DNA of 64,000 nt. It comes from an uncultured Verrucomicrobiota bacterium (GTDB lineage: Bacteria > Auribacterota > JABMQX01). This document shows positions 2,317-50,203 of this stretch, one piece after another; the stretch's first letter is position 1, and every line of letters starts with the position of its first letter. A program made the translations under genes and the position numbers. The notes below the pieces were generated by a model. The model searched no databases, was not told where the DNA came from, and was given only the letters and a program-made list of their open reading frames with translations. The stretch lies in assembly GCA_964516325.1 (NCBI GenBank), contig CAZFAP010000001.1:2221-66220 (forward strand), written 5' to 3'.

Positions 2317-2386
2317 CGTCCCTTTTCGCTAAAATCCTCATAGAATGTCCTGATTGCGCCACGGGGACCTCGGTCGGGAAGGGCTT

Positions 2387-3217
2387 TCATCCAGCCTGCT
2401 TCCTGCACAGCAGATACCAACCGCTCGCCAGGAACCGAGGGAGGAAATCCGCGAGCCGTCCATCAAACCGGTCCACAAGCCTGCTCTTCGTCCTGAGCAT
2501 GACGCCGAAAATGAAAATGGAGTTCACGACCTCCACGACGGACAATCCCGCGTCTCTCAGGAGTTCACTGAGCTGACCCGTGGTGAATTTCTGCACGTGG
2601 TCCTGGTCGGGGTTCGATGTGTGGACCGCGCACTTGGTCGCTGCGTCAAGCATTTTCGTGCCTGCACGTACTCGGTCAATCAATCTCCCAAGTCCCAGCT
2701 TGTCCCTCAAGACTTTTTCGCTGCGGCCGAGGACCTCCCTCGGTCCGTATCCGTTCGGTACCGTGATTAACAGCAGCCCATCGTTTTTCAAATGCCGCGT
2801 CATCGTCGCGAGCAACCGTTCCGGCCTGTGCAAATGCTCCAGAACTTCTGAACAGATTGTCAAATCAAAACGTTCGTTAAGATCGAAATCGTCATCCGAC
2901 ACGACCTCAAAGCGTGCATTGCGGTAGGGATTTGCGTCTCGCGCGTGCCCGATCGAAGCTTCATTGACGTCAATGCCTACCACGTCGCATCCAAGCGAAG
3001 CCACCGCAAAGGCCATCGCGCCGTTTCCGCACCCGACATCCAGCACCTTGACCGGGCGCTCGGGCACGTTCATTCTCATCAGAGTCGAAAACAGATACTC
3101 CAACTTTTTCCGTCCGCCCGGAATCGTGTCATAGTCTGTCGAACCAAAAAACTTCTGCCTCAGTTTCGCTTCCATCCCGGTATCCGGTTTCCCGTCTCGC
3201 TTCATCAGATGCGTCAA
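2387..3217 (-). CDS. Class I SAM-dependent methyltransferase
   Basis: VLDVGCGNG glycine-rich SAM motif plus an acidic loop; 276 aa. The ATGA overlap with the upstream acetyltransferase indicates an operon. Confidence 0.85.
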   Translation of the reverse strand: MTHLMKRDGKPDTGMEAKLRQKFFGSTDYDTIPGGRKKLEYLFSTLMRMNVPERPVKVLDVGCGNGAMAFAVASLGCDVVGIDVNEASIGHARDANPYRNARFEVVSDDDFDLNERFDLTICSEVLEHLHRPERLLATMTRHLKNDGLLLITVPNGYGPREVLGRSEKVLRDKLGLGRLIDRVRAGTKMLDAATKCAVHTSNPDQDHVQKFTTGQLSELLRDAGLSVVEVVNSIFIFGVMLRTKSRLVDRFDGRLADFLPRFLASGWYLLCRKQAG

Positions 3218-3996
3218 GCCTCACCGGGTTCCCTTCGGTCCCTGACCATCTTCGCTGGCACACCCGCGACCACCGCGAATGGCGGAACATCCTTTGTCAC
3301 GACGGCTCCCGCCCCAACAACGGCGTCATTTCCGATGGTCACTCCGTCGAGAATCGTCGAGCCTGCACCCAGCCACACGTTGTCGCCGACTCTCACTCCA
3401 CCGCGCAGGTCCAATCCCTGCTCCAGAATCGGGATGTCCGTTCGGTCCATTCGGTACAATCCGGCGCCGACAATGTAGCAGTACGGGCCAATCAGAACGT
3501 TGTTTCCCACAAGCACCTCGTTTCCCGAATAGGTATGGACCGTCGTGCGAGCGCCTATCCCCACGCGATTCCCTATCTTAACCTTCCCGCCCTTGCAGGC
3601 GATAATCGTGTCCCGGGCGATGAACGTGTTGCTCCCGATGGAAATGCTTGTCTCCTCATCGGAACGAGCGTCCAAAACGCATCCATCGTCCACGATGGTA
3701 CAATCTCCGATCTCGATCCGCCGGGGATGCCGCAGACAAATATCCTTCCCGAACATCACGCCACTGCCCACTTTGCCAAGCAGCTTCCTGTACAGCTTTT
3801 TCCGAAGCCAGAGCCCCGCCGCGCCGCTCAGCCCGTTGCACAGCAGCATCACCAGCTCGAACTTTAGAAAAAACCAAAGCCCCTTCTTCCCGAGCGTGAC
3901 CTCCTGATAGCGCTCGATCGCGGACCTCTCTTCGTCGGTGATGCGTTGCAGCGTGCCTTGCATTCTTACCAGGGGAAGTGTCTCGTCCGCGTCCAT
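3214..3996 (-). CDS. Hexapeptide-repeat (left-handed beta-helix) acetyltransferase, WcaF/CysE-like
   Basis: Tandem [LIV]-G-x-x-x-x hexapeptides (IGNRVGIGARTTV, VGDNVWLGAGSTILDGVTIGNDAVVGAGAVV) with an N-terminal hydrophobic segment. Confidence 0.85.
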   Translation of the reverse strand: MDADETLPLVRMQGTLQRITDEERSAIERYQEVTLGKKGLWFFLKFELVMLLCNGLSGAAGLWLRKKLYRKLLGKVGSGVMFGKDICLRHPRRIEIGDCTIVDDGCVLDARSDEETSISIGSNTFIARDTIIACKGGKVKIGNRVGIGARTTVHTYSGNEVLVGNNVLIGPYCYIVGAGLYRMDRTDIPILEQGLDLRGGVRVGDNVWLGAGSTILDGVTIGNDAVVGAGAVVTKDVPPFAVVAGVPAKMVRDRREPGEA

Positions 3997-4005
3997 ACGT
4001 TCCTC

Positions 4006-5943
4006 TCAAGCGGCTCTCGCCGTCATAAGTCTATCCGTCAGCTCACGCAAACTGTCGAAGGTCTGCCCTTCAAAAAAGAGGCGATACCAGAATTCCAGGT
4101 TAATCAGAACCCATATCCGAAAGTTGTGGTCCCACTTTCCGCCGATGTGCTCGTCCAGGATTGACTCGATCTCTTCTCGATTGAAAATGCCGAGTTGGAC
4201 GAACCGTGATTCTCTCATCAGCCCACGCACGAAGCCTGCAAGCTCGTTCCTCATCCACTCTGCCAATGGGAATCCAAATCCCTGTTTCCTTCGCCCGATA
4301 AGCTCTCGCGGTAGGTATCGGGAAGCAACTCGCCGGAGTATGTATTTCAATCTTCGCCCTTTCAGCTTCAGTCCCGACGGGATGGATGCGGCGAACTCGA
4401 CCATCCTGTAATCCACGTATGGGGAGCGCCCTTCCAGCCCGTGAGCCATAGCCATCCGGTCGAGAATTACTAGAAGGTGGTCCGGCAGCCGCGTCATCAC
4501 GTCGGTGTAGAGCATCCGGTCCACAAGCTCCGACACGCACTCCGCGTCGAAGAAACCCAGCACCTTTTCCGTCGAATCCGGCTCGCCGACCTCGAATATG
4601 GCTTTCTGCGTGAACAGCCGATTCTTCGCCTCGTTCGTGAATCGCAAGAAGCTCATGCTCTCGGCGTACCGCCTTCCTTTTGACATGAACGACATGTCGT
4701 TCATCCAGCGCACCTTCTGCGCCAGGCTCTTGTACTCGTAGGAGTCGGGCAGCGCTTCTGCCAGCCGCCTCATCACGGCCTTTCGGAACCATTCGGGCAA
4801 TATGGAATACCAATCCGCGAGCCGATTCCCCAGAAAGCGGTCATAACCCGCGAAAAGCTCATCCCCGCCGTCTCCGCCGAGAGCGACCTTCACGTGCCCC
4901 CGCGTCAACTTTGAGACGAGATATACGCCCACTCCAAACGGGTCGGACGGCTCGTCCATGTGCCAGACCATCTTCGGGATCAGATGCACAATGTCGGCAT
5001 TCACGACCCATTCGTGGTGTTCCGTCCCATATCTCTCGGCGACCTTTCTCGCAAAAGGAAGCTCATTGAAGCTGCTCTCCTTCACACCAATGGAAAACGT
5101 TGGTATGCGCGAGTCAGAAACTTTCGCCATGATTGCGGCAATTGTGCTGGAGTCAATTCCCCCGCTCAAGAACGCTCCCACCCGCACGTCGCTCAGCAAA
5201 TGCATCCTCACCGTCTCGACGAGAAGTTCGTTGAGTCGCTCCTCGATGCCGGCCTCATCCTCGGCGAGCTTGTTGCGGTAGTCCGGCGACCAATATCGCT
5301 CAACGCTCACCTTCCCGTTCCGGTACAGGAGGTAACTCGCGGCGGGAAGCTTTTGCACTTCTTCAAAGAGAGTCATCTGGTCGGGGATGAACCGCAGCGA
5401 CATGTAATGCCAGAGCGCTTCCATATCAATTCGGCGTTCCACCAGCCCGCTCTCCAGCACCCCTTTTACCTCCGACGCGAACGCGAACCCTTTCGCCCCG
5501 TTGTGGAAGAAGACAGGTTTCTGTCCGAGATGATCCCTCGCCAGCATGAGAGTTTTCGTCTTTCCGTCCCAGAGAGCAAAGCCGAACATCCCCCGCAGCT
5601 TCCGGACGCATTCGGCCCCCAGTTCCTCGTATAGATGAAGAATGACCTCCACATCAGTCCGCGTCTTGAAGACGTGCCCCGTGCGGACCAACTCCTCTCT
5701 CAGGCACGGCGAATTATATATTTCGCCATTGCACACCAGCACAATCGAGCCGTCCTCGTTGCTGATCGGCTGGCGCCCGGACTCCACATCAATGATACTC
5801 AGTCGCCTCTGGCCCAGGGCAATCCTTCCATCCGACCACGACCCTTCATCATCCGGACCGCGGTGCGCCTGTATGCTCAGCATCCGCTTGAGCACATTCA
5901 TGTCCGATCCATTATTTGCAATCAATCCGGCTATCCCGCACAT
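4006..5943 (-). CDS. asnB: Asparagine synthase (glutamine-hydrolysing) family amidotransferase, of the kind found in polysaccharide loci
   Basis: N-terminal MCGIAG marks a class-II glutamine amidotransferase Cys nucleophile. SGGIDSS is a PP-loop ATP pyrophosphatase motif; 645 aa. Confidence 0.9.
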   Translation of the reverse strand: MCGIAGLIANNGSDMNVLKRMLSIQAHRGPDDEGSWSDGRIALGQRRLSIIDVESGRQPISNEDGSIVLVCNGEIYNSPCLREELVRTGHVFKTRTDVEVILHLYEELGAECVRKLRGMFGFALWDGKTKTLMLARDHLGQKPVFFHNGAKGFAFASEVKGVLESGLVERRIDMEALWHYMSLRFIPDQMTLFEEVQKLPAASYLLYRNGKVSVERYWSPDYRNKLAEDEAGIEERLNELLVETVRMHLLSDVRVGAFLSGGIDSSTIAAIMAKVSDSRIPTFSIGVKESSFNELPFARKVAERYGTEHHEWVVNADIVHLIPKMVWHMDEPSDPFGVGVYLVSKLTRGHVKVALGGDGGDELFAGYDRFLGNRLADWYSILPEWFRKAVMRRLAEALPDSYEYKSLAQKVRWMNDMSFMSKGRRYAESMSFLRFTNEAKNRLFTQKAIFEVGEPDSTEKVLGFFDAECVSELVDRMLYTDVMTRLPDHLLVILDRMAMAHGLEGRSPYVDYRMVEFAASIPSGLKLKGRRLKYILRRVASRYLPRELIGRRKQGFGFPLAEWMRNELAGFVRGLMRESRFVQLGIFNREEIESILDEHIGGKWDHNFRIWVLINLEFWYRLFFEGQTFDSLRELTDRLMTARAA

Positions 5944-6150
5944 TTGCTTCTCTTATGCGAGTTGAAAGGCAGAGTTCGTTCGCAACATCCTGAGCAGCCG
6001 AGTCGCAATACCTTACAATTTCGGCGAACGATAAGTCAAAGGTTCTCGTCCCGTCCCCGCCATCACGTTCGTTCACGTTGTGCCTGTTGTGGCGTTCTGC
6101 TATCTTTAGTCAAGAAGCGCGGGTACAAAGACGACCGCTTGGTGAAAGAA

Positions 6151-6891
6151 ATGGCGATTACTTTCGACAATGAGGCGCCCGATGTTGAAACCTCCTCCGA
6201 GAGGTACGCGAGGAGATTTTCCGGGCCGGTGGGAGATTATTTCCTCCGCGTCCAGGAGCAGCTCTGTCTGGAACTGCTTCGCCCCTGGCGAGGGGGACGA
6301 GTTCTCGATGTCGGGGGAGGGCACGCGCAGATTGCCATTCCCCTTGCTGCCGCTGGGTACGATGTGACCGTGGTCGGCAGCGCCCCTTCCTGCAACGAAC
6401 GCCTTTCTCGCCTGGCTGCCAGCCGCTCTGTGAAAGTCGGCTTCTTTACGGGCGATCTCCTAAATCTCCCTTTCCCTGACCGCGACTTTGACGTTGTCGT
6501 TTCCCTCCGCCTGATCTCGCACGTCCCGAGCTGGCGTCGCCTCATCCGCGAGCTGACCCGTGTCGCCCGCCACGCCGTCCTGATTGACTATCCGTCTCTG
6601 GTCAGCGCAAATCTCGCCGTCCCTGTCCTGTTCACACTGAAAAAGATGGTCGAGCGCAACGCTCGCCCCTTCCTTTCTTTCACGAAGAACGGGACTTACG
6701 ATTCCTTTCTCAGGAACGGCTTTAGTGTCTCGGCGGCGAAGTCGGAGTTTTTCATTCCCATGGCTTTTCACCGCGCCTGCGGCTGCCTCTCGTTCACGCA
6801 AACCTCGGAACGGCTCTTCCGCATTCTCGGCGTCACTCGCCTGCTCGGGTCACCAATCATCGCTCTTGCCGTGCGCCAGCAAGGTCGCTGA
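6151..6891 (+). CDS. Class I SAM-dependent methyltransferase (Methyltransf_11-like)
   Basis: VLDVGGGHAQIAIPLAAAGYDV motif. The track ORF 5635..6891 is an artefactual N-terminal extension that overlaps asnB on the other strand; ATG 6151 (MAITFDNE) is the plausible start. Confidence 0.75.
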   Translation: MAITFDNEAPDVETSSERYARRFSGPVGDYFLRVQEQLCLELLRPWRGGRVLDVGGGHAQIAIPLAAAGYDVTVVGSAPSCNERLSRLAASRSVKVGFFTGDLLNLPFPDRDFDVVVSLRLISHVPSWRRLIRELTRVARHAVLIDYPSLVSANLAVPVLFTLKKMVERNARPFLSFTKNGTYDSFLRNGFSVSAAKSEFFIPMAFHRACGCLSFTQTSERLFRILGVTRLLGSPIIALAVRQQGR

Positions 6892-6900
6892 CGTTCTCCC

Positions 6901-8301
6901 TCAAAAGCCCTTCAGCAACGCCCTCGCGTACTTCTTCCACCGCGAGAATTTGCGAAGAAGGAGCTTTCCGACCTCGGAGTAGAGGATTGGATATCCCAGT
7001 GCCTTCAGCTTGCTCTCTCTCCAGAATACACGGGTCCCAAAAAGCTTGTAGCTGCGCTCGATTTGTTTCGCGGGGAAGTGCGGCATTTTCAGAATGGACT
7101 TGCGATAAGCCGCGTCCGAGGGGACGCTTTCTCGATGAGGCAGATAGCCCTCCTTCAAGCATGAGTCGTACAGGTCAGTCCCCGGAAGAGGCGTGAATAC
7201 GGATATGCCTATGATAGTTGGGCGGATCATCCGGTTGAGTCGCACGGTCTCCATGTGCATCTCCGGCGTCTCGCCCGGCAGCCCCACCATGTTGAGGGTC
7301 TTAATTTGAAGCCCGACATCTCGTGCCGCCCTCGCCGCCTCCAATATCCTGCGGTTAGACATCGGGCGCCTCAGAACCTGCCGCCGCAGCTCCTCGTTGC
7401 CTGTCTCCACGCCAATATCAATCCGCCTTGCCCCTGCCTTCTTCAGAAGCGCCACCGTCTCACGGTCGCAGGCCTCCACCCGCGCGCAGAAAACAAAAGA
7501 AACCCCGATTTCCTGCAGATACCGCTCTGCGAACTCCGCGAGGCGCTTTTTATCGAGCATGAAAACATCGTCGTCGAAAAAGACCTCCTTGAACTTGAAT
7601 CTCGACTTGAGAATTTTCAGCTCTCCGAGGAGATGGTCCGTCGAGCGGAAGCGGACATACCTTCCCGATTGCGCCCCGGCCAACTTGTGATTGCAGCAAT
7701 AACTGCAACGGTATGGACATCCTCTCGACGCCAGAACCCGCATCTGCGATAGCCCATAGGCGTCTATGCTGCGCTGGGTATCAAAAAGGTCACGGTCCTC
7801 GTGAGGCAGCTCGTCGAGATTGGCGATGAATGGGCGCGGTTGATTCCGAATAATTCTCCCGTTGTGTCGAACCCAGAGTCCCTGAATCTTCGTTGGGTCG
7901 CCCCCTTCTTGAAGGGCTTGCGCCAGGTCCAGCGTCGCGTACTCGCCCTCCCCCACGCAGAAGGCGTCCAGCCCGGAAATTTCCTCGATTGACTCCGGAA
8001 AGCACGTCGGGTGCGGTCCCCCGCAAATCGTGAATGCCCGGCGACAGGGAGTTTCCCGGACGAGCCTTTTGACCAGACCCACATCGCAGCTTGGCAGATA
8101 AAACCCGATCAGACCGGGGTCATATTTGGCAATCTCTCGGCGCCATTCGCCAAGGTCGAAGCCCTTCGCAAAGTAAATCAACCGGACGTCCCGAAATCCG
8201 TTGGCCTTCAGCACCGCTGAAATGGACATGAGTCCGTGCTGGGATCCCAGCGCATCAAATCGTTGCCCAACTTCAAGAAAACCAAGCGCTATCTTCATCA
8301 T
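6901..8301 (-). CDS. B12-binding domain radical SAM protein
   Basis: N-terminal cobalamin-binding-like domain followed by a CPYRCSYC (CxxxCxxC) radical SAM cluster motif; 466 aa. Confidence 0.85.
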   Translation of the reverse strand: MMKIALGFLEVGQRFDALGSQHGLMSISAVLKANGFRDVRLIYFAKGFDLGEWRREIAKYDPGLIGFYLPSCDVGLVKRLVRETPCRRAFTICGGPHPTCFPESIEEISGLDAFCVGEGEYATLDLAQALQEGGDPTKIQGLWVRHNGRIIRNQPRPFIANLDELPHEDRDLFDTQRSIDAYGLSQMRVLASRGCPYRCSYCCNHKLAGAQSGRYVRFRSTDHLLGELKILKSRFKFKEVFFDDDVFMLDKKRLAEFAERYLQEIGVSFVFCARVEACDRETVALLKKAGARRIDIGVETGNEELRRQVLRRPMSNRRILEAARAARDVGLQIKTLNMVGLPGETPEMHMETVRLNRMIRPTIIGISVFTPLPGTDLYDSCLKEGYLPHRESVPSDAAYRKSILKMPHFPAKQIERSYKLFGTRVFWRESKLKALGYPILYSEVGKLLLRKFSRWKKYARALLKGF

Positions 8302-8565
8302 TGCAGTCGTGGCTACGGATATTGTTCGCGGCTTGGTTTCCGCGGAAAACGTCCGTGGCTCCTATCCCGGGATCCGGTTCGGTTACTGCTCCCGGCGAGC
8401 CGGTGGCCGCTGCGTCGGGAGTGCCGAAAACCGGACATCCCTTCGTCCTGAGCAGCCAATTTACTTTTGACTTCGTTTCGGACAGTATGTAGATTGTGTC
8501 GGTCGTTGTCAACGCGGCGGGGGTTCGCCAGCCGCATCGGAGATTTCTCTCTCGAGGGTCGGTCC

Positions 8566-9654
8566 ATGGTGCTTGGGAAACAAGCCAGCGCGAGAAGGAT
8601 TCCTGTTTTCGTCCTCAAGTCCGCTATCGCGGTTTTGCTTCTGTACCTCCTTCTCCGCAAACTCCGCTACCAGCTGTTCGCGCAGACCTTCCGGGGGATT
8701 GTCTGGTGGTGGGTCATCGCCGCCGGAGCTCTTCATATAACGGGCTACCTCTTCAGCGCTCATCGCTGGCGCATCCTGCTCAAGGCTCAAGGGCTGAGCC
8801 CCTCGCTCTGGGAGCTGATCAAGTCGTACGCTATTGGCACATTCTTCAATTACATTCTTCTCGGGACTCTTGGCGGGGACATCTCCAGAGCCTATGACAC
8901 GGGCATCCGAAGCAAGAGGGGTGCGGAGGCGGTCTCCGCTGTGTTTCTCGAGCGTGCGACCGGCGTTGTGGCGATGGTGTTTCTCGCCGCGGTGGGAACG
9001 CTTTTTCTGCTGATCGGACCCAGTCGCCTTTCTGCCTCTGCCTTCTGGAATGTCCAGGCTGCCGTCGCAATTTGCGCTGTCATTTCTGTCGTGCTGTTCG
9101 CGGCGGTCTTCGTCCTGTTCCATCCTCGTGTGGCAAGCATCGTCGCGGCCAAGCTGGACCGTCCCAACCCCCTCTTTGGAAAACTCCGAAAGATTTTCCT
9201 ATCGCTCCATTCGGCAGTCGGCGTTTACCGCACGAACCTTGCCCCCATTTACAAGAACCTCTTTTGGGCCGCGATCCTCCAACTGAACGTCACCCTGCAT
9301 TATTTCTTCCTCGGCTTAGCCATGGGGTTGCCTTTGCTTCATTACCCGCTTCATTATTTTTGCAGCTACTTGGTCATCGTTCCGGCGATCACACTCATCT
9401 TGACAATACCCCTGACCCCGGGGGGCGCCGGCGTCCGGGAATGGACGCTCACGGAGCTTCGCGGGGGGTTGGGTTTTGCTGCTACTCCGGCGGGCATCGC
9501 CAGAGCTGTCCTGATGGGATGGCTCCAGGTGGCGACAGTCCTCTTCTACGGCATCATTGGTTTCTTGATCCTTCTGCATCGCCTTTTCTCGGCGAAGCGT
9601 TCAGGCTCGGATAAACCTCCGCCAACTCAATCCGCCAATCCTCCAGCCGCTTGA
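8566..9654 (+). CDS. Flippase-like membrane protein (UPF0104 / lysyl-phosphatidylglycerol-synthase TM domain family)
   Basis: Multi-TM protein with R/K-rich loops, typical of the LPG_synthase_TM family. The track start at 8467 is an alternative; ATG 8566 (MVLGKQ) is preferred. Confidence 0.65.
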   Translation: MVLGKQASARRIPVFVLKSAIAVLLLYLLLRKLRYQLFAQTFRGIVWWWVIAAGALHITGYLFSAHRWRILLKAQGLSPSLWELIKSYAIGTFFNYILLGTLGGDISRAYDTGIRSKRGAEAVSAVFLERATGVVAMVFLAAVGTLFLLIGPSRLSASAFWNVQAAVAICAVISVVLFAAVFVLFHPRVASIVAAKLDRPNPLFGKLRKIFLSLHSAVGVYRTNLAPIYKNLFWAAILQLNVTLHYFFLGLAMGLPLLHYPLHYFCSYLVIVPAITLILTIPLTPGGAGVREWTLTELRGGLGFAATPAGIARAVLMGWLQVATVLFYGIIGFLILLHRLFSAKRSGSDKPPPTQSANPPAA

Positions 9655-9832: not shown

Positions 9833-12800
9833 TCATTCCACTTCGACCTTGTAGAACCGCAGAAGAGCCAGCTTTGCGGTTGGGTCACGGTATTCCATCC
9901 AATCCCCGGTTCCCCACATTGACTCACCGAGCGTCTGCCAACCGTTTCCCATTCCATCGCAGTACAACAACCGATACGTCTTCCCTTTGGCAGAGTGCCA
10001 TGAGATGACCGCGTCGGTATCGAGTCCCCGAGCGCACCTCACACTGAGGAATGATTGACCGTCTGTCGGATTTGTCCCGGCGAAATACTCGCTTCGGTTT
10101 GACTTTCCATCTCCGTCGAAGTCGGCCTCTCCAAAAACGTCCGCTGGTGAGCGCATCCCGTCGGTGGGGTTCGCGTCCGCAATCACTTTTTCCCACGAGT
10201 CCGGCAGCCTATCGTTGTCAGCGTCGGCCTGCCTCGCGTCAAAGGAAAGCGGCTTTCCGATTCGGGGCGACCCGCTTGACATGCCGAGGGGCGTCACCCT
10301 TAGGATCACGTTCTCGAGCAGCCGGCCCCCTTCGTCGGCAACGGAGTCCCAGACAAAGCTATGATCCTCTCCCAGAGGCGAAGATGAGAGACTGAACTTG
10401 CCTTCTCCCTCCGACGACCGCGTCGCCTTCCGCCAGGTTTTGCCTGCGTCGGTCGAGTATTGGACGACTATCGAGCAAGGTGTGCTCAACATGTGGTACA
10501 GCTTATAGTCCACATATACCCAGCCATTGCGCTCGGCAGTGACTTCTACGAATAGGACAATCGGCGTCTCCGGGTTTGCCTCATCGGCGCCGATGTCGGT
10601 CATCGGACTGAGCCGCCCGGGCATGATTCTCGGCTCCCCGTCGAGGTCCGTCGCGGGCAGACCGGGCTCCGTGCTCGATCCGCCGTCTATGCACGGCGAT
10701 GACGGCAGGAGATGAAAGTCATCCTCGGTCGCGGAAACGAAGAGCGGGTCTGAAGATATGTTGCCGCTCTTCCCCGCGAAGCTGCTGTCCTCCACGTCGG
10801 AATATCGCAGGAGATTGTCCCCCGCAAGGAACACCGGCGAGCTGTTCCCCCAGATAATTGCGTTCGCCGCCTCGACGGACGACAGTTCCTCCGCAAAAAG
10901 CGCGGCGCCTTCCGGAGCCGCGTTGTTGGCAATAGTGCAGCTCACCAGACTGATGTAGCTGTCGCCAGCCGCGTGCACGCCTCCTCCGTCGTATGCCGCC
11001 TGATTGCCGCTGAGCTGGCAGCCTCGGATGCGCAGCGAGCATGAGTCTGTCAGGAATAGCCCTCCGCCGTACCACTCCGCGACGTTCCCGCATATCTTCG
11101 TCGTCGAGACGGTACCGGACGACCCTTCGTAGCAGAAGAATCCGCCGCCGATCACCGCGGAATTGTCCGAGACCTCACAATCAACAAAGACGGGAGAGGA
11201 ACCCGCGTCAATGCAGACTCCGCCTCCCCACACCGCCGAGTTATTTACCACGCGGCACTTCGCAATCCGGGGCGACGAACGGAAGAAGTAGATTCCGCCG
11301 CCGACTTTGGCGCCCTTCCCGAACGGCTCCCCAACCCCGCCCGTTATCGTGAACCCCTCTATCTTCGCCCGGTCAACTTGCTCAAAAGCTACCGTCGTGC
11401 CCTGCCCATTGCAGTCTATTGTCGTGTTCTCCGCGCCCTGCCCCACGACCTCGATGTCATTTTTCATCCGGATTTTCTCGCGGTAGGTGCCCGCTCGTAC
11501 CGCGACGACATCCCTGGACTCCGCCGCCTCGATCGCTTTCTGGATGCTCGAGTAATCTTCGGGGACGCGGATAGGCAAAATCCGCAGAATCACGTGCACA
11601 GAAGCGGTAACACTCGGCTTCTTGGTATCTCGCACAATGATGTCGGACTCGTAGGTCCCAATGTCCAGCCCCGATTTCTCAACGGAAACGGCAACTGCGT
11701 CCTCCTCGCCGTGATTCGTGCCGGTCGAGGGGCTGAGCGATAGCCAGCTCGCGTTCTCGCTGGCAGCCCATGTTATGCCGCTGGGAGACTTCGCGCTGAT
11801 TGTCAGCGTCTGGCTCGGTGGGCTCTTGCCGCCCCTGTTCGTCGTGAATTCCAGGAGTTCCGGGGAAACGTAAAGCTCCGGTTTCAGTTCTCTGACCAGA
11901 AGCTTGATTTCAATCGTCTGGGGTGAGTTCTGGGCGTCGGGCGCCTCGACGACCACATTCGCCACATAGTTGCCTGGCTCCATTCCGTCGCCGATAATAG
12001 AAACCGATACAAATTCCGGGGTCCCCGAGTTCGCCCCCGACTCCGGCAACACGCGAACCCATTCCTCCTCGACGGAAGCCGACCACTGCATTTTTCGACC
12101 GCCCGTGTTGCGAACGCTGAAGTTTTGCGGCGGCGGGTCGGGCGCACCCTCGTCCATCGCGAAACTCATGGTGATGGGCGAGACGCTGAGCACCGGCGGC
12201 TTCTCCTGGATTGTTAGCTTCACCTGCACATTCTGAGGAGAACCGTTCGCCCCGGGGGCGGTTACTGTTATCGCTGCCGAATGACTCCCCGGCAACAGAC
12301 TCATCGCGTCCACGAGGATCTGAACAACGTCTATCTCACCCTTCCCGCTTCCCGATTCCGGCGAAGGCGACAGCCATGCCGCGTCGCTCCCGGCGTGCCA
12401 CTCCATCTCCCGTCCTCCGGCGTTGCGAATCCGAATCTCCTGCGCCGGAGGATTTCCTTCCTCCTCGACCGCGAAGAACTCAAGGTTGAGGGGCGTAACT
12501 TCGAGAACCGAAGGCGGCTGCTCCGCCACCGTCAGCGTTACAGAAACAACCTGCGGCGAATTGCTCGTCGTCGCACTGACGGTGATCATCGCCCTGTAAG
12601 TCCCCGTGGACAAACCCGCCGTGTCCACTCCGACCTCGACGTTATCCTTCTCGCCAGCATTTGTTCCGGAGCTCGGATTCAATCGCAGCCAGGGGACATC
12701 CCCCGAGACATCCCAGGAGATTTCCCCCGAGCCGACGTTTTGGATTTCGATTCCCTGCGGCGGTGGAGGCTCCTCGTTTTCGATGCAAGCGAAGGTCAAC

Positions 12801-15229
12801 TCCGTCGGAGAAACCGCTAACCGCGGCGGCGGGGGTGCAAGGTCCAAAAGGACAGGAATCACAACGGGCGAGTTGACCGCCCTCGCGGACGCGATGCTGA
12901 CATGCGCGGCATATGAACCGGACGTCAAGCCGGCAATATCAATGGAGACCGCTATCGTGTCGTCCTCGCCCGCGCTCGTCCCTTCTGCGGGAGAGACTCT
13001 TAACCACGGCATATCGCTGGACGCCTGCCAGTCCATATCGCCTCTCCCGACATTCCTGACGACCAGCTCCTGCGGGGGCGGGTTCTCTCCGCCCTCAAAT
13101 GCAGAGAAGCTGAGAATCGCCGGCGAGGCAGATAGCGTCGGCGGCTTTGGCGCAACCAGAAGCGTTATCTCAACTTCCTGCGGGGAATTCACGACCTCTG
13201 CGGCAGTTGCGGTCATGCGGCCCACGTACGTGCCAGGCAAGAGTCCCCCGATGTCGGCATGAAGGACAACGATGTCTGGCTCCCCGGTGTTCGTCCCCGT
13301 CGTCGGAGAAGCCGTAAGCCACGGCGCGTCCTCCGAAATCTCCCACGAGAATTCCCCTGTTCCGACGTTTTGGATTACGGCTTCCTGGGGTAGGGGATTG
13401 GCTCCTCCTTCCGTCTCAGCGAAAACGATAGTAGCCGGTGAGACCGACAGCAGCGGTGGCGGCTCTGTCATTTCGAGGAGAACCGGAATGGATTGCGTCG
13501 GACTGGAGGTCGCTGTAACCCGGATACGCGCTGCATACGACCCGATGGTCAGCCCCGTTACGTCAACGGAAACATCAACGGCGTCAATCTCTCCCTCGCT
13601 GCTTCCCGATTGCGGGGCAAGGCTCAGCCAGGGCAGGTCTCCCTCGACCTGCCATGCCATATCGTGTCCCCCGGTGTTTTGAATCTCCAGCTTCTGTGCA
13701 GGGGGATTTGGCCCGTTCTCCCACGACGAGAATTTCAAGATTGTCGGAGAGACCGAGAGGATCGGCGTCAGCTCAAAAATCTTCAGCGTTACCGTCACAT
13801 AAATCTTTGTGCTTGGAAGCTGTATGCACGACACCGTGATTGTTGCCTGGTAGTCTCCGGCGAACAACCCCGCGATGGATGCGCTGACGGTGACAGAATC
13901 TTTCTCGCCCGTGTTGCGTCCGGCGGTCGGGCTGAGCACCAACCAGGTTGCGTTATCCTCGACCCGCCAATCGAGGTCTCCGCCCCCGGAATTCCACACC
14001 TCCAGCGTCTGGCTCTCGGGGTCGGGCATCTTCTCCATGCCCTCGAACGCGAACGACTCCGGCGAGGAAGACAACACCGGCGGGGGGACATTGTTCACGG
14101 TGAAGTTGCTCGTCTCGCCGGGTGTCCCGACCTTCGTGTCCGACGGCGTGATGCGAACCCGAATATCGTTCTGGTTTGTTTGCCCGATGTCCGTCAACGA
14201 GTCCCACACGAAAATATGATTCTGGCCGGTGCGCGACGAGGTCAGATTGGACACCCCGTCTCCCCCCGGACCCTGCGTCGCAGGTCGCCACGTCAAGCCG
14301 CCATCCTCCGAAAGCCGCACGACAATTGTGCAGGGGTCGCCTTGGGTGTCCTTCAGCGTGTAGATAATAGTAACGAGGCCGCTTTGGATTCCTGAAGGCG
14401 TCTGGACTATCGCGACCGGCGGGGATTCGGTCATCGGCACAACCCGCACTTCAATCAGAAAATCGTCATCGTCGTCGCTCCCGCCGGTGCATCGGTCCAA
14501 ATGAAGTAGATAACCTTCGACCTCATTGGGCAGGACCGTTACCGCCGTATCGCCCAGTCCATTGTTGTTGTCCAGATCACTGAAGGACTCGTTGGGACGA
14601 TAGCCTGAGTATGCGGAGACTCCGAGCGTTATCACGTAGAAATCGAGTCCTGATCCTGCTGGCAAGAAGCCCAGGCTATGGTCTGGGGTCGCTGGGGGAT
14701 TATTGGGGACATCTTGATACAGGATGTGGCGGTAGCTAGCAGGAGTCGTCGCGGTAGCGTAGCCAAACCCGATTTCAGAGTTGGCCGCGGCAGAACCTCC
14801 CACCCTGTAGGACAGGATCACTTCCCCGGACGTCTTCGTGGTAATGAACGGCCACGACCCCGTCGGTTCCACACGGAACATCCCGTCGCTTGTGTCCGAA
14901 ACCGAGACGTTGAGGGCGTCAGAGACTCTGACGATGCAAAACGCTGAGGGGATATTCGGGACAACCCAGGTCTCGTTCTCGTCGTTCGGAGTGCTCGCCC
15001 TGAAAACACTCCATGTGCTGCCGCCATTCGAGGAGTACTCGATTTTGACCTGGGTGATGCTCGAAGAAGCCGTCCAGGTGATCGTGTGTGTGGTGCCGAC
15101 AACCAGACGCTCCGACCCGTTGGGAGAAGTCACCACGATGGATTGAGCCATGCAATCCCCGAGGGCAACAAACGCCGCGAAAACCGCGGCAAGAACAAGC
15201 GGCAATCGCCTCACCGGGAAACACTCCAT
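9833..15229 (-). CDS. Giant secreted surface protein (~1799 aa). Order: signal peptide, BNR/Asp-box motifs, 8 tandem BACON-like repeats, a right-handed parallel beta-helix (PbH1) domain, a Ca-binding D-x-D-x-D-G segment, and a conserved C-terminal domain.
   Basis: The signal peptide is MECFPVRRLPLVLAAVFAAFVALG. SxDGGxTW motifs appear three times. Eight ~105-aa repeats share the pattern P.LSVSP..L.F...EGG.NPP.Q...I.N.G.G...W.....PWL...P.SG...GE.D.V.VS.D..GL..G.Y.A.I.V.A....NSPQ.V.V.L.V. PbH1 repeats read NNSAVWGGGVCID...GNQAAYDGGGVHA. The FDGDGKSNRSEYFAGTNPTD stretch is dockerin/TSP3-like. The track start at 15433 is probably an over-extension. Confidence 0.8.
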   Translation of the reverse strand: MECFPVRRLPLVLAAVFAAFVALGDCMAQSIVVTSPNGSERLVVGTTHTITWTASSSITQVKIEYSSNGGSTWSVFRASTPNDENETWVVPNIPSAFCIVRVSDALNVSVSDTSDGMFRVEPTGSWPFITTKTSGEVILSYRVGGSAAANSEIGFGYATATTPASYRHILYQDVPNNPPATPDHSLGFLPAGSGLDFYVITLGVSAYSGYRPNESFSDLDNNNGLGDTAVTVLPNEVEGYLLHLDRCTGGSDDDDDFLIEVRVVPMTESPPVAIVQTPSGIQSGLVTIIYTLKDTQGDPCTIVVRLSEDGGLTWRPATQGPGGDGVSNLTSSRTGQNHIFVWDSLTDIGQTNQNDIRVRITPSDTKVGTPGETSNFTVNNVPPPVLSSSPESFAFEGMEKMPDPESQTLEVWNSGGGDLDWRVEDNATWLVLSPTAGRNTGEKDSVTVSASIAGLFAGDYQATITVSCIQLPSTKIYVTVTLKIFELTPILSVSPTILKFSSWENGPNPPAQKLEIQNTGGHDMAWQVEGDLPWLSLAPQSGSSEGEIDAVDVSVDVTGLTIGSYAARIRVTATSSPTQSIPVLLEMTEPPPLLSVSPATIVFAETEGGANPLPQEAVIQNVGTGEFSWEISEDAPWLTASPTTGTNTGEPDIVVLHADIGGLLPGTYVGRMTATAAEVVNSPQEVEITLLVAPKPPTLSASPAILSFSAFEGGENPPPQELVVRNVGRGDMDWQASSDMPWLRVSPAEGTSAGEDDTIAVSIDIAGLTSGSYAAHVSIASARAVNSPVVIPVLLDLAPPPPRLAVSPTELTFACIENEEPPPPQGIEIQNVGSGEISWDVSGDVPWLRLNPSSGTNAGEKDNVEVGVDTAGLSTGTYRAMITVSATTSNSPQVVSVTLTVAEQPPSVLEVTPLNLEFFAVEEEGNPPAQEIRIRNAGGREMEWHAGSDAAWLSPSPESGSGKGEIDVVQILVDAMSLLPGSHSAAITVTAPGANGSPQNVQVKLTIQEKPPVLSVSPITMSFAMDEGAPDPPPQNFSVRNTGGRKMQWSASVEEEWVRVLPESGANSGTPEFVSVSIIGDGMEPGNYVANVVVEAPDAQNSPQTIEIKLLVRELKPELYVSPELLEFTTNRGGKSPPSQTLTISAKSPSGITWAASENASWLSLSPSTGTNHGEEDAVAVSVEKSGLDIGTYESDIIVRDTKKPSVTASVHVILRILPIRVPEDYSSIQKAIEAAESRDVVAVRAGTYREKIRMKNDIEVVGQGAENTTIDCNGQGTTVAFEQVDRAKIEGFTITGGVGEPFGKGAKVGGGIYFFRSSPRIAKCRVVNNSAVWGGGVCIDAGSSPVFVDCEVSDNSAVIGGGFFCYEGSSGTVSTTKICGNVAEWYGGGLFLTDSCSLRIRGCQLSGNQAAYDGGGVHAAGDSYISLVSCTIANNAAPEGAALFAEELSSVEAANAIIWGNSSPVFLAGDNLLRYSDVEDSSFAGKSGNISSDPLFVSATEDDFHLLPSSPCIDGGSSTEPGLPATDLDGEPRIMPGRLSPMTDIGADEANPETPIVLFVEVTAERNGWVYVDYKLYHMLSTPCSIVVQYSTDAGKTWRKATRSSEGEGKFSLSSSPLGEDHSFVWDSVADEGGRLLENVILRVTPLGMSSGSPRIGKPLSFDARQADADNDRLPDSWEKVIADANPTDGMRSPADVFGEADFDGDGKSNRSEYFAGTNPTDGQSFLSVRCARGLDTDAVISWHSAKGKTYRLLYCDGMGNGWQTLGESMWGTGDWMEYRDPTAKLALLRFYKVEVE
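11520..14090 (-). repeat. Intragenic tandem array of 8 repeats, ~315 bp / ~105 aa each, encoding BACON-like Ig-fold domains within the giant protein
   Basis: Protein-level periodicity read directly from the translation (repeat boundaries at PPPVLSSSP, LTPILSVSP, PPPLLSVSP, KPPTLSASP, PPPRLAVSP, QPPSVLEVTP, KPPVLSVSP, LKPELYVSP). Coordinates are approximate. Confidence 0.55.
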
Positions 15230-15878
15230 CACCGTTTTCAAGAGCACGCCTGACTTTCTCCTCCGAGGAGGGAAGCCGCTTCCCACTCCATCCCGGCACA
15301 ACAACCGAGCAGTGGTTTTGAGACGGGTCTTAAACACAGAGCGTGAGCGGCGGATCTGTCGGAGAGACTCTGCTGCCTGCCCCCGGACTGACGCGCGCTC
15401 AGCACACGATCCAGGAGCATGTCGGTGCACCACCTTTCAGGCCGCAGACACCGAGGCAGCCTCGCCCTCCACGAATCTTCACCCGGCGGGTCTCATCTTC
15501 TCGCAAGAGGATAAGACATCTCCCCTTTGAGTATCACAAAGAAAATACCCTGAAGCCCGGCTTTTGTCAAGGCAGGAACCTCGATGGGGTGTGGCTCCAT
15601 TTGAGTGTCGCTGGCGTGGCACGTGTGCCAGATAGGGAGTGCAGTCCTGCCCAACATGAGGCTCTATGACGCCCCTTCAGGGCTGATAGAGGTGGGGCGG
15701 GGCGCTATCCTCAGGGCTTCGCCCTGGGCTAAGCTATCTCGCCCCGTTGGGGCCTACTCCCTTCTCCGTAGCCAAGCCCTGAAAGGGCGCGATAATGCGA
15801 TGCCACCATAATAGAGCCGCACCCTCGACGATGCTGATCTTCTGCTTTTTGCGTTTTTCTGCTATCATAGAGTAGTGC

Positions 15879-16133
15879 TTGGAGCCGAACGAAACAATGC
15901 CAACCGTTTTGAGAAGTGGGCCATTTCGGTTTTTCTTCTACAGTGACGAAGGAGCGAAAGCTCCTCACATCCACGTGCAGGAGGGCCGTAAACTCGCGAA
16001 ATTCTGGCTCGACCCCGTGCGGCTCGCATCCTCCAAACGGTTCAACGCGCAAGAGCTTCGGACGGCGGAGAGAATTGTAGAAGCAAACAGTCGGCAGTTT
16101 GTGGAGGCGTGGCATGAGTTCTTCAATGCCTGA
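15879..16133 (+). CDS. DUF4160 family small protein
   Basis: 84 aa; FYSDEGAKAPHIHVQ is a DUF4160-type motif. The stop overlaps the downstream gene by 20 nt. Confidence 0.6.
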   Translation: MEPNETMPTVLRSGPFRFFFYSDEGAKAPHIHVQEGRKLAKFWLDPVRLASSKRFNAQELRTAERIVEANSRQFVEAWHEFFNA

Positions 16134-16392
16134 TTTGGACCCGAGGGCCCAATCCGTTCAATTCGACAACGACGAGCTGACCGTGGTGCTCGTGGATGGT
16201 CGGCGAATCAGCGTTCCGTTGGCCTGGTTCCCCAGGTTACTTCACGCTACACCCGCGCAACGACACAACTGGCAGTTGCTTGGCGACGGGGAGGGAATTC
16301 ATTGGCCGGATGTTGATGAGGACCTCAGCGTCGCAGGGCTCCTGCGTGGTGTCCGCGCCCCAGACGCGGCAGGCAAGCTCCCGACCCATTGA
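16114..16392 (+). CDS. DUF2442 family small protein (partner of DUF4160)
   Basis: About 92 aa; DELTVVLVDGRRISVPLAWFPRL matches the DUF2442 pattern. Overlapping gene pair. Confidence 0.55.
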   Translation: MSSSMPDLDPRAQSVQFDNDELTVVLVDGRRISVPLAWFPRLLHATPAQRHNWQLLGDGEGIHWPDVDEDLSVAGLLRGVRAPDAAGKLPTH

Positions 16393-16500
16393 GCACGCCG
16401 CAGCTTCCGCAGCGCTTCGTCAAGCACGACCCACTCGCGTCCGTATTCCCCCAATCCCTCCCCACCTTGCCAGCTCCCACCCAGACGGCAGTCACTACGT

Positions 16501-44100: not shown

Positions 44101-44178
44101 TGTCCCTCGGTTCGTGACACTGGACTCCCAAAGGACAACGCAAACGATGAAGTAGAAATTCAGCAGAGGAGCGTGACT

Positions 44179-49729: not shown

Positions 49730-50203
49730 GATCCGGTCCTCCTGTTATCTGCTGCCAGGCCGCAGTGCGAACAATTCGCTAAAGTCTGCTGGACGCCATG
49801 GAATCTGGGGGAGAGAGCCTGTCCCTGGGTTAGCCACTATGAATGATAATCGTGACGTGGCTGGGCGGCAGCGCGCCGCCCGCCTGCCCACCTCAGCACC
49901 AGACACTGCACCCACCCTACCCCGCTGGAAATGCCGTGAGCAAAATGTGGGTCGTTCGGATACTCCACTCAGCCACCGGTTGGCGTACACGGAACGCATT
50001 CTATCAAAATGGAACTCGCCAGCGAAAGAAGGCTTCCATCGCCACCCCTCCCGAATTCGGGCGTTGCGTATGGGTCAGAAGTGGGTTATCCTCTGACTCA
50101 GTGGGAAGTGTCGTCTCGTTTCCTGTTGACCAGGCCAGAGTCATCGCTGGTCATCCGTGAAAAGGTACCGAAGGCGATCACCGCGATAGGAGGGGGCGCA
50201 ACG

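What the first reader, a model, noticed from the sequence alone, without database searches (positions are those of the whole stretch)
9833..15229. Giant modular surface protein: BNR motifs, 8 BACON-like repeats, a pectate-lyase-type beta-helix and a dockerin-like Ca-binding segment
This domain combination suggests a cell-surface polysaccharide-binding or -degrading protein or an adhesin. The BACON-like repeats (the W....PWL...P.SG..GE.D.V.V..D..GL..G.Y.A.I.V pattern) are typical of carbohydrate-active surface proteins. The gene sits at the end of a glycan-modification locus.
Basis: partly seen in the sequence, partly recalled or inferred. Interest (0 to 1): 0.5.

Follow-up and report, generated by a model that had tools for sequence, protein, structure and literature searches.

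The report
Giant secreted stalk-and-beta-helix surface protein
This is a real 1,800-residue exported protein of an uncultured Verrucomicrobiota (Kiritimatiellia-like) bacterium, built from eight Ig-like BACON spacer modules, an adhesin-type beta-helix and a widespread but uncatalogued C-terminal domain; it looks like a cell-surface binding protein, not a proven enzyme, and is fairly ordinary for its kind.

Summary
The ORF is real: window 9833..15229 on the minus strand, 1798 aa. The true start is probably GTG 15247, giving 1804 aa.

**What holds up**
- The eight BACON-like repeats are confirmed (Pfam BACON_2, 8 stretches, E 3.5e-56).
- The right-handed beta-helix is confirmed (PF13229; AF2 pLDDT above 90).

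**What needs relabelling**
- The "BNR motifs" are three isolated Asp-boxes inside Ig/FN3-like domains.
- The "dockerin-like" segment is two TSP3/EF-hand-like loops and gives no dockerin hit.
- The helix carries Pmp-type GGG/NxxA coil motifs and a choice-of-anchor-Q cap. It matches no CAZy-linked Pfam family above threshold, and none of the six checked families' motifs except the CE8 cap motif. No Lys, Arg or His is conserved in its coils.

**New observations**
- The last 73 aa form an FN3-like "RFYR" domain with no curated model. It occurs in at least 2,644 protein clusters, usually at the extreme C-terminus.
- Linkage to a glycoconjugate-type locus recurs in several lineages but not all.

**Best reading:** a non-catalytic cell-surface stalk or adhesin. 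An enzymatic role for the helix is not excluded. It is a new member of a known kind, of modest interest.

The parts
9833..15229 (-). Giant gene, 1798 aa from the ATG at 15229. The probable true start is GTG 15247 (1804 aa). The stop codon is 9833-9835.
   Evidence: ORF list; SD-like GGAGGAG 10 nt upstream of GTG 15247; 100% identical 1804-aa NCBI protein P0001.
15143..15229 (-). Sec-type signal peptide (aa 1-29), probable cleavage after CMA.
   Evidence: It is the only hydrophobic segment in the protein, aa 3-24. All 10 orthologs have an N-terminal hydrophobic leader; a Cys follows it in some but not all, and no lipobox is conserved. No SignalP run was available.
14864..15142 (-). Asp-box Ig-like domain 1 (aa 30-122), Kre9/KNH and Reelin-subrepeat-B-like.
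   Evidence: Reelin_subrepeat-B, Big_7 and BNR hits, all sub-threshold, found in 7-9 of 9 orthologs. AF2 pLDDT is about 80-89 with beta-sandwich matches.
14432..14863 (-). Orphan beta-rich domain (aa 123-266) with the invariant motif HLDRxTGGxDDDxDF.
   Evidence: No Pfam hit in any of 9 orthologs. No PDB profile hit. The AF2 model is poor here, pLDDT 40-70. The residues are invariant across orthologs.
14087..14431 (-). Asp-box FN3/Ig-like domain A (aa 267-381).
   Evidence: It is a paralogue of domain B (38% identity, E 1e-19). The same domain type is repeated in the relatives P0014, P0015 and P0018.
11582..14086 (-). Eight contiguous BACON_2 Ig-like modules (aa 382-1216), about 105 aa each.
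   Evidence: Pfam BACON_2, 8 stretches, E 3.5e-56. Repeat alignment shows 26-50% identity. Orthologs carry 8 or 9 copies and remoter relatives 1-4.
10730..11581 (-). Right-handed parallel beta-helix (aa 1217-1500) with Pmp-type GGG(I/V/F/L) turns and an NxxA asparagine ladder at 26-27-residue spacing.
10565..10729 (-). Choice-of-anchor-Q cap of the helix (aa 1501-1555): DPLF..DYHLLP.SPCID.G....D.DG..R....DIGADE.
   Evidence: NCBIfam NF041518 scores 26.9 bits against a cutoff of 25. The motif is invariant in 16 homologs of 42-62% identity.
10232..10564 (-). Asp-box FN3/Ig-like domain B (aa 1556-1666).
   Evidence: Paralogue of domain A. AF2 beta-sandwich with pLDDT about 80-90. Foldseek returns tandem-FN3 matches.
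10055..10231 (-). Two TSP3/EF-hand-like acidic loops (aa 1667-1725): DADNDRLPDSWE and DFDGDGKSNRSEYFAGTNP. Presumed to bind Ca2+.
   Evidence: Regex search. TSP3_bac 17.6 bits, below threshold. AF2 pLDDT below 50. The same motif precedes the C-terminal domain in 32 of 114 unrelated proteins, against 6 of 395 background windows.
9836..10054 (-). C-terminal FN3-like "RFYR" domain (aa 1726-1798), ending ...LRFYKVEVE.
   Evidence: A profile search finds 2,644 representative proteins at E up to 1e-3. The last copy ends within 10 aa of the C-terminus in 115 of 145 top hits. There is no Pfam or NCBIfam model. The AF2 model is a beta-sandwich.
15542..15570 (-). Promoter-like site TTGACA-17-TATTTT upstream of the gene (weak evidence).
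   Evidence: Consensus scan. The number of sites found is not above the shuffled expectation.
1..9654 (.). Linked locus, context only and not co-transcribed with the giant gene:
- about 1000-aa polytopic membrane protein, 1..2316 (-), cut by the window start
- SAM methyltransferase, 2387-3217 (-)
- hexapeptide acyltransferase, 3214-3996 (-)
- AsnB-type amidotransferase, 4006-5943 (-)
- SAM methyltransferase, within 5635-6891 (+)
- B12/radical-SAM enzyme, 6901-8301 (-)
- flippase-like LPG_synthase_TM protein, 8467-9654 (+)
   Evidence: Pfam and NCBIfam. Synteny with the giant gene in L004, L007 and L015, with a remoter relative in L025, and with the membrane protein alone in L001-3.

Best explanation
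It is a Sec-exported, non-catalytic cell-surface "stalk" protein, an adhesin or binding protein, of an uncultured Kiritimatiellia-like Verrucomicrobiota bacterium.

**Shown**
- Signal peptide.
- Three Asp-box Ig/FN3-like sandwiches.
- An orphan N-terminal domain.
- Eight linker-less BACON_2 Ig-like modules.
- A Pmp/CASH-type right-handed beta-helix closed by a choice-of-anchor-Q cap.
- Two acidic TSP3/EF-hand-like loops.
- A terminal FN3-like RFYR domain.

**Inferred**
- The BACON array is a rod-like spacer. Its copy number drifts (8-9 in orthologs, 1-4 in relatives) while the flanking domains stay fixed.
- The block from the last BACON module through the helix and cap, Asp-box domain B and the TSP3 loops to the RFYR domain is the constant part of a wider family. 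The N-terminal part varies between family members: orphan domain here, FG-GAP, VWA/LamG or He_PIG elsewhere.
- I therefore take the C-terminal block as the base that holds the protein on the cell envelope, and the N-terminus as the exposed tip.
- The flat faces of the helix, and possibly the acidic loops with Ca2+, would bind a glycan or another surface component. That component may be the product of the neighbouring glycoconjugate locus.
For: - **Export.** There is a single N-terminal hydrophobic segment and every ortholog has a leader.
- **Domain map.**
- **Helix sequence.** The coil motifs are of Pmp type: five GGG[ILVF] turns and an NxxA ladder, with PF02415 above its cutoff. In Pmps these motifs are structural (PMC11166332).
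- **No catalytic signature.** Across 16 homologs of 42-62% identity, the conserved coil residues are Gly, Asn, Ala, Cys and aromatics, with no Lys, Arg or His. No PL, GH or CE Pfam family is matched above threshold. Of the catalytic motifs searched, only the CE8 cap motif GxYxE is present.
- **BACON as spacer.** PMC6949934 and PMC11216935; copy-number variation.
- **Constant C-terminal block with variable N-termini.**
- **RFYR domain.** It is terminal in 79% of top hits.
- **Synteny with the locus.** It recurs in four lineages.
Against: - Localisation on the surface has no direct support. There is no recognised anchor: no lipobox consensus, LPXTG, PEP-CTERM, GlyGly-CTERM, T9SS CTD or beta-barrel.
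- A conserved polar patch on adjacent coils (D1341 in 14 of 16, Y/H1367, E/D1368 acidic in 16 of 16) could be an active site.
- Two ortholog lineages (L001-3 in part, L005 entirely) lack the neighbouring locus. [quoted passage not shown]
- The orientation of the molecule (C-terminus proximal) is inference only.
Confidence: 0.5

Rival explanations
1. It is a polysaccharide-active enzyme (lyase, glycosidase or C5-epimerase). The beta-helix is the catalytic module, presented on a BACON stalk. It would either degrade environmental glycans or trim or modify the polymer made by the neighbouring locus, as AlgG/AlgL or RbmB do for their own exopolysaccharides.
For: - Acidic and aromatic residues are conserved on adjacent coils: D1341, Y/H1367, E/D1368.
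- The gene is next to a glycoconjugate locus.
- Relatives of the host lineage encode sulfatases nearby.
Against: - No PL, GH or CE family HMM is matched. The only pectinesterase similarity is the N-terminal cap GxYxE region.
- The motifs DPH(D/E), QDT/DFIFG, NTD/RIK and vWiDH are absent.
- No basic residue is conserved in the coils, although beta-elimination lyases need a Lys or Arg base.
- D1341 is replaced by Lys in two homologs.
- The top structural match is the non-enzymatic RbtA.
Confidence: 0.2
2. It is an envelope structural glycoprotein, S-layer-like. It would be the substrate of the neighbouring glycosylation machinery: a PMT_2 GT-C enzyme with TPRs in some lineages, and the uncharacterised ~1000-aa membrane protein. 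The Ig-like modules would be O-glycosylated, as TMTC/PMT enzymes do to cadherin and other beta-sandwich domains.
For: - A 1117-1129-aa PMT_2 gene lies directly beside the ortholog in L004, L007 and L015.
- The ~1000-aa polytopic membrane protein follows the ortholog on the same strand, 180 bp away, in L001-3. In the window it closes the locus.
- The protein is rich in Ser and Thr (18%).
- S-layer genes next to glycosylation loci are a known arrangement (my own knowledge).
Against: - The window has no PMT_2 homolog anywhere in its 64 kb.
- The genes are convergent, not co-transcribed.
- The membrane protein has no detectable homology to any GT-C enzyme.
- There is no self-assembly or lattice evidence.
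- L005 has neither partner.
Confidence: 0.15
3. It is a phage-derived or phage-related tail or receptor-binding protein, because the repeats match the "viral BACON" model and beta-helices are typical of tailspikes.
For: - The PF19190 model was built from crAss-like phages, and crAssphage gp64 also has eight BACON repeats (PMC6949934).
Against: - No phage genes flank it. Its neighbours are Nramp, envelope-modification genes and central metabolism.
- It has a Sec signal peptide.
- Orthologs sit in 50-350-kb cellular contigs in conserved chromosomal contexts.
- BACON_2 is widespread in bacteria (PMC11216935).
Confidence: 0.02

Closest known systems
Rhombotarget A (RbtA) of Acinetobacter baumannii (PDB 9CDU/9CDV)
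   Different: Sequence identity is only 12-19%. RbtA is 617 aa, has no BACON array, and is sorted by a GlyGly-CTERM/rhombosortase signal. The target lacks that signal: its C-terminus is a soluble RFYR beta-sandwich. No NCBIfam rhombotarget model is hit.
Chlamydial polymorphic membrane proteins (Pmp) and other Pmp-repeat beta-helices (PF02415)
   Same: The helix has repeating GG(A/G)(I/L/V/F) turns and an xxN asparagine ladder at about 26-residue spacing. PF02415 scores above its cutoff on the isolated domain. In Pmps these motifs are structural and the helix is an adhesin (PMC11166332).
   Different: There is no autotransporter beta-barrel and no PMP_M middle domain. The helix is internal to the protein and is followed by FN3-like domains.
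Pectate lyase Pel9A (PL9, PDB 1RU4) and alginate lyases and epimerases (6KFN, 8JA4, AlgE4 2PYG)
   Different: No family-level sequence match is found, none of the searched catalytic motifs is present, and no base is conserved in the coils.
BACON / BACON_2 domain proteins (e.g. BoGH5A of Bacteroides ovatus; crAssphage gp64)
   Same: The Ig-like modules match both Pfam models well above threshold. They form a tandem array of eight, as in gp64 (PMC6949934).
   Different: The host is Verrucomicrobiota, not Bacteroidota. The array is internal, not an N-terminal lipoprotein spacer, and no SusC/D-type PUL surrounds it.
Choice-of-anchor Q domain proteins (NCBIfam NF041518)
   Same: The C-terminal cap of the helix matches the model above its cutoff and is invariant in homologs.
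   Different: The family is defined only by sequence and has no known function, so membership says little about mechanism.

Membership tests
BACON_2 / BACON (PF19190, PF13004) | Match to the family HMM above the gathering score | tested here: met
   BACON_2 scores 187.6 bits (cutoff 25) in 8 stretches. BACON scores 57.6 bits (cutoff 25).
BACON_2 / BACON (PF19190, PF13004) | Carbohydrate binding, as implied by the name | not testable with these tools
   It is unproven even for the family. The solved structure indicates a linker role (PMC6949934, PMC11216935).
BACON_2 / BACON (PF19190, PF13004) | Typical context: Bacteroidota, N-terminal position behind a lipoprotein signal, PUL neighbourhood | tested here: not met
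   The host is Verrucomicrobiota. The array is internal, at aa 382-1216. No SusC/D genes were seen among the neighbours scanned.
Pectate/polysaccharide lyases with beta-helix fold (PL1, PL3, PL6, PL9) | Right-handed parallel beta-helix fold | tested here: met
Pectate/polysaccharide lyases with beta-helix fold (PL1, PL3, PL6, PL9) | Sequence membership in a lyase family model | tested here: not met
   No Pec_lyase, Pect-lyase_RHGA_epim, Chondroitinase_B or similar Pfam hit at E up to 10. No PDB lyase is hit by the profile. dbCAN was not available.
Pectate/polysaccharide lyases with beta-helix fold (PL1, PL3, PL6, PL9) | Catalytic Lys/Arg base plus a Ca2+-binding acidic cluster in the groove | tested here: inconclusive
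   No Lys, Arg or His is conserved in at least 13 of 16 homologs between aa 1300 and 1470. Only D1341, Y/H1367 and E/D1368 are conserved. No superposition on Pel9A was possible.
Pectin methylesterase (CE8, PF01095) | Signature motifs GxYxE, QDT(L/F), DF(I/V)FG and the catalytic Asp pair | tested here: not met
   Only the cap motif GTYRE is present; QDT and DFIFG are absent. The HMM hit is limited to profile positions 12-67 and is below threshold.
Alginate C5-epimerases (AlgE/AlgG) | DPH(D/E) catalytic motif | tested here: not met
Chlamydia-type Pmp repeat proteins (PF02415) | Repeated GGA(I/L/V) and FxxN motifs in helix coils | tested here: met
   There are five GGG[IVFL] turns and four [VIL]xxN(S/Q/A)A motifs. 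PF02415 scores 22.2 bits against a cutoff of 20.6 on the isolated domain.
Chlamydia-type Pmp repeat proteins (PF02415) | Type V autotransporter beta-barrel at the C-terminus | tested here: not met
   No autotransporter or PMP_M hit is found. The C-terminus models as FN3-like sandwiches.
Choice-of-anchor Q (NF041518) | HMM match above the curated cutoff | tested here: met
   26.9 bits against a cutoff of 25, at aa 1504-1551.
BNR/sialidase-type beta-propeller | Several Asp-boxes at regular spacing, one per propeller blade | tested here: not met
   The three Asp-boxes at aa 66, 307 and 1592 lie in separate beta-sandwich domains. BNR scores 22.9 bits against 27, and BNR_2 18.5 against 31.4.
Dockerin type I (PF00404) | Duplicated 22-residue Ca2+-binding segment D(V/I)NxDGx(V/I)..D and an HMM match | tested here: not met
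   No HMM hit at E up to 10, and the dockerin loop pattern is absent.
Bacterial thrombospondin type 3 repeat (PF18884) | DxDxDGxxDxxE-type acidic loop and an HMM match | tested here: inconclusive
   Two loops fit the pattern, but the HMM scores 17.6 bits against a cutoff of 25. Ca2+ binding was not testable.
Known C-terminal sorting signals (T9SS CTD, PEP-CTERM, LPXTG, GlyGly-CTERM) | HMM match, or a terminal TM helix plus motif | tested here: not met
   No Por_Secre_tail or other sorting-domain hit is found. There is no C-terminal hydrophobic segment.

The most novel reading that the evidence does not exclude
The recurrent C-terminal cassette, a TSP3-like DxDGDGxSNxxEYxAGTNP loop followed by the about 70-aa FN3-like domain ending RFYR(V/I)xx, may be an undescribed envelope-attachment or export signal of Verrucomicrobiota and PVC bacteria.

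On this reading, the giant protein is tethered to, or glycosylated by, the product of the neighbouring conserved locus. The key component of that locus would be an unannotated ~1000-aa polytopic membrane protein that could be a new GT-C-like enzyme.
Probability: 0.15. Interest if true: 0.6.

Novelty: new member of a known kind. Interest (0 to 1): 0.3.

Why it matters
As a single gene it matters little. Large secreted proteins combining Ig-like repeats with a beta-helix are common in PVC bacteria and in metagenomes.

Two by-products have wider use:
- **An uncatalogued C-terminal domain.** It occurs in at least 2,644 protein clusters, is nearly always the last domain, and is absent from Pfam and NCBIfam. 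It is a candidate for a new family and possibly a sorting or attachment module. How Verrucomicrobiota and Kiritimatiellia display their many giant surface proteins is not understood.
- **A conserved envelope-modification locus.** It contains an unannotated ~1000-aa membrane protein and repeatedly neighbours these proteins.

The result also cautions against reading "BACON" or "pectin-lyase fold" as evidence of carbohydrate activity.

Tried and rejected
- **Genome scan for the giant protein.** The scan of genome contigs found no relative, so the source genome is not among the species representatives. Taxonomy was obtained through the neighbouring AsnB gene instead.
- **Contig look-up of P0001.** The exact look-up of the identical NCBI protein failed.
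- **PDB sequence searches.** The whole protein gave 0 hits. The N-terminal profile gave 0 hits. The C-terminal profile gave only the pectinesterase cap and weak TolB and reelin hits.
- **afdb50 fold library.** It was not available.
- **The ~1000-aa membrane protein.** It has no Pfam, NCBIfam or PDB homology, and all its homologs are "hypothetical".
- **Lipoprotein anchoring.** I rejected it as a firm call, because the Cys after the leader is present in only about half of the orthologs and the lipobox is non-canonical.
- **Phage origin.** I rejected it on gene context.
- **Rfam.** No RNA element was found in the long upstream intergenic region.
Full report
**1. The observation**

The minus strand carries one uninterrupted ORF from 15433 to 9833.
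- A GGAGGAG box sits 10 nt upstream of a GTG at 15247, and the identical database protein P0001 is 1804 aa. The real start is therefore probably 15247.
- The only hydrophobic segment is aa 3-24, and every ortholog has such a leader. The protein is exported through Sec.
- A Cys follows the leader in about half of the orthologs, but without a canonical lipobox. I do not call it a lipoprotein.

**2. Domain map (aa)**

| aa | Domain | Evidence |
|---|---|---|
| 1-29 | Signal peptide | |
| 30-122 | Asp-box Ig-like domain | sub-threshold Reelin_subrepeat-B, Big_7 and BNR hits, recurrent in orthologs |
| 123-266 | Orphan domain with invariant HLDRxTGGxDDDxDF | no Pfam or PDB match |
| 267-381 | Asp-box domain A | |
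| 382-1216 | Eight contiguous BACON_2 modules | E 3.5e-56, 8 stretches; 26-50% pairwise identity |
| 1217-1500 | Right-handed beta-helix | PF13229; PF02415 above cutoff on the isolated domain |
| 1501-1555 | Choice-of-anchor-Q cap | NF041518, 26.9 against 25 bits |
| 1556-1666 | Asp-box domain B | paralogue of A, 38% identity, E 1e-19 |
| 1667-1725 | Two acidic loops, DADNDRLPDSWE and DFDGDGKSNRSE |; TSP3_bac 17.6 bits, below threshold; no dockerin hit |
| 1726-1798 | Terminal beta-sandwich ending RFYKVEVE | |

- The Asp-boxes are single motifs in three separate sandwiches, not BNR propeller repeats.
- The acidic segment is TSP3/EF-hand-like, not a dockerin.
- "Pectate-lyase-type" applies to the fold only.

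**3. The beta-helix**

*Structure.*
- An AF2 model of aa 1205-1798, built on 12 homologs, has mean pLDDT 81 and above 90 through the helix.
- Foldseek also ranks RbtA first.
- RbtA is a T2SS-secreted cell-surface protein without a known activity (PMC12643943, PMC5861075).

*Sequence.*
- I aligned 16 helix domains of 42-62% identity. The conserved positions are the GGG turns, the NxxA asparagine ladder, Cys and aromatic residues.
- No Lys, Arg or His is conserved in the coils.
- The only conserved polar positions there are D1341 (14 of 16, Lys in two homologs), Y/H1367 and E/D1368.
- The motif search found none of the epimerase (DPH[DE]), GH28 or PL1 motifs. Of the CE8 motifs, QDT and DFIFG are absent and only the cap motif GxYxE is present.
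- The GGG/xxN coil motifs are those of Pmp repeats, which structural modelling indicates are structural (PMC11166332).

I conclude that catalysis is unsupported but not excluded.

**4. The BACON array**

- Orthologs carry 8 or 9 modules. Remoter relatives with the same helix carry 1-4.
- The modules abut without linkers.
- The literature does not support carbohydrate binding by BACON itself. The solved example acts as a linker (PMC6949934), and a spacer role is proposed for BACON and BACON_2 (PMC11216935).
- A spacer rod is the simplest reading.

**5. The C-terminal domain**

- A profile of aa 1722-1798 found 2,644 representative proteins at E up to 1e-3 among 1.84 billion.
- Among the 145 best, the last copy ends within 10 aa of the C-terminus in 115. 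For single-copy proteins the figure is 41 of 45. The endings are RFYR(V/I/L)xx.
- It can also occur in tandem, up to 6 copies by my profile and more by the server count. That argues against a pure signal peptide-like role.
- No Pfam or NCBIfam model covers it.
- Partner domains include beta-helices, He_PIG arrays and "autotransporter-associated beta strand" and CSLREA proteins. One named source organism is Haloferula. This points to a PVC distribution, but the taxonomy was barely sampled.
- The TSP3-like loop DxDGDGxSNxxEYxAGTNP precedes the domain in 32 of 114 proteins, against 6 of 395 control windows. The two therefore form a cassette.

**6. Family and organism**

- Nine full-length orthologs (50-63% identity, 1818-1952 aa) exist in metagenomes and MAGs. 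All are unnamed.
- The neighbouring AsnB gene is 83-85% identical to genes in "Verrucomicrobiota" and unclassified MAGs, and 53-57% identical to Kiritimatiellae MAGs.
- Remoter relatives share the last BACON modules, the helix, the cap and Asp-box domain B. P0014, P0144 and P0219 also share the terminal RFYR domain, while P0015 and P0018 end after Asp-box B.
- Their N-terminal parts differ completely: FG-GAP, VWA plus LamG, or He_PIG.
- The C-terminal block is thus the constant part and the N-terminus the variable part. This is why I place the C-terminus at the cell and the N-terminus outward. This is inference.

**7. Gene context**

*In the window.*
- The gene is convergent with a flippase-like LPG_synthase_TM gene.
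- Beyond that gene lie a B12/radical-SAM enzyme (HpnJ-like, below cutoff), two SAM methyltransferases, an AsnB-type amidotransferase (closest model: XrtA/PEP-CTERM system amidotransferase, below cutoff) and a hexapeptide acyltransferase.
- A ~1000-aa polytopic membrane protein closes the locus and is cut by the window start.

*In relatives.*
- The same block flanks the orthologs in L004, L007 and L015. There a 1117-1129-aa PMT_2 GT-C gene is inserted next to the giant gene.
- In L025 the block lies 4.5 kb from the He_PIG relative.
- In L001-3 only the membrane protein remains, 180 bp downstream on the same strand.
- L005 has neither partner.
- L027 has the locus without such a gene. In L009 no giant gene lies on the side where it sits in the window.
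- Elsewhere the locus includes an NAD-dependent sugar epimerase/dehydratase, a GT2 and PMT_2 genes.

"Glycan-modification locus" is therefore a fair description. The linkage is recurrent but facultative. The membrane protein has no detectable homologs of known function.

**8. Verdict**

- The finding is real and mostly correctly described.
- Its functional reading is only partly supported.
- The most likely function is a non-catalytic surface stalk or adhesin (0.5).
- The rivals are a polysaccharide-active enzyme (0.2) and an envelope glycoprotein coupled to the neighbouring locus (0.15).
- It is a new member of a known kind of protein.
- The uncatalogued RFYR cassette and the unannotated membrane protein are the parts worth following up.

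Noticed in passing
window 1-2316 (-), cut by the window start; also L001 15748-18702, L008, L009, L015, L025-L027: A ~1000-aa polytopic membrane protein with about 10 hydrophobic segments and a large C-terminal soluble part. It has no Pfam, NCBIfam or PDB homology. The family is small (27 hits, all hypothetical). It always closes the conserved locus, and in L001-3 it lies directly downstream of the giant-gene ortholog. It may be a GT-C-like enzyme; this was not tested.
   Followed up: partly
window 2387-9654; L004, L007, L008, L009, L015, L025-L027: A conserved gene block: flippase-like LPG_synthase_TM, B12/radical-SAM (HpnJ-like), SAM methyltransferase, AsnB-type amidotransferase, hexapeptide acyltransferase and a second methyltransferase. 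In some relatives it also holds a sugar epimerase/dehydratase, a GT2 and PMT_2 genes. Its product is unknown.
   Followed up: partly
window 9836-10231 (-): The terminal cassette, a TSP3-like loop plus an FN3-like domain ending RFYR(V/I), is very widespread: at least 2,644 clusters at 50% identity. It is usually the last domain of the protein and has no curated family model.
   Followed up: partly
window 5635-6891 (+) against 4006-5943 (-): The listed 418-aa methyltransferase ORF overlaps the AsnB gene on the opposite strand. Homologs are only about 255-260 aa, so the real start is probably near 6100.
   Followed up: partly
window 15434-16500: An unusually long non-coding stretch of about 1.1 kb lies between the Nramp gene and the giant gene. 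It has no Rfam match. One promoter-like site lies at 15570-15542 (-).
   Followed up: partly
window 43855-45495 (+) and 50009-52438 (+): Two further surface-type proteins: an FG-GAP repeat protein and a protein with seven Bact_surface_Ig-like domains. Neither carries the RFYR C-terminal domain by tblastn.
   Followed up: partly
window 28865-30379 (+): A multi-haem c-type cytochrome (Multi-haem_cyto, with weak MtrC/MtrF-like similarity) in an otherwise fermentative-looking gene set (PFL, POR).
   Followed up: no
L001 6084-7769: A separate 561-aa beta-helix protein lies upstream of the ortholog in L001-2. It has 27% identity to the target's helix (aa 1307-1565) by tblastn.
   Followed up: no
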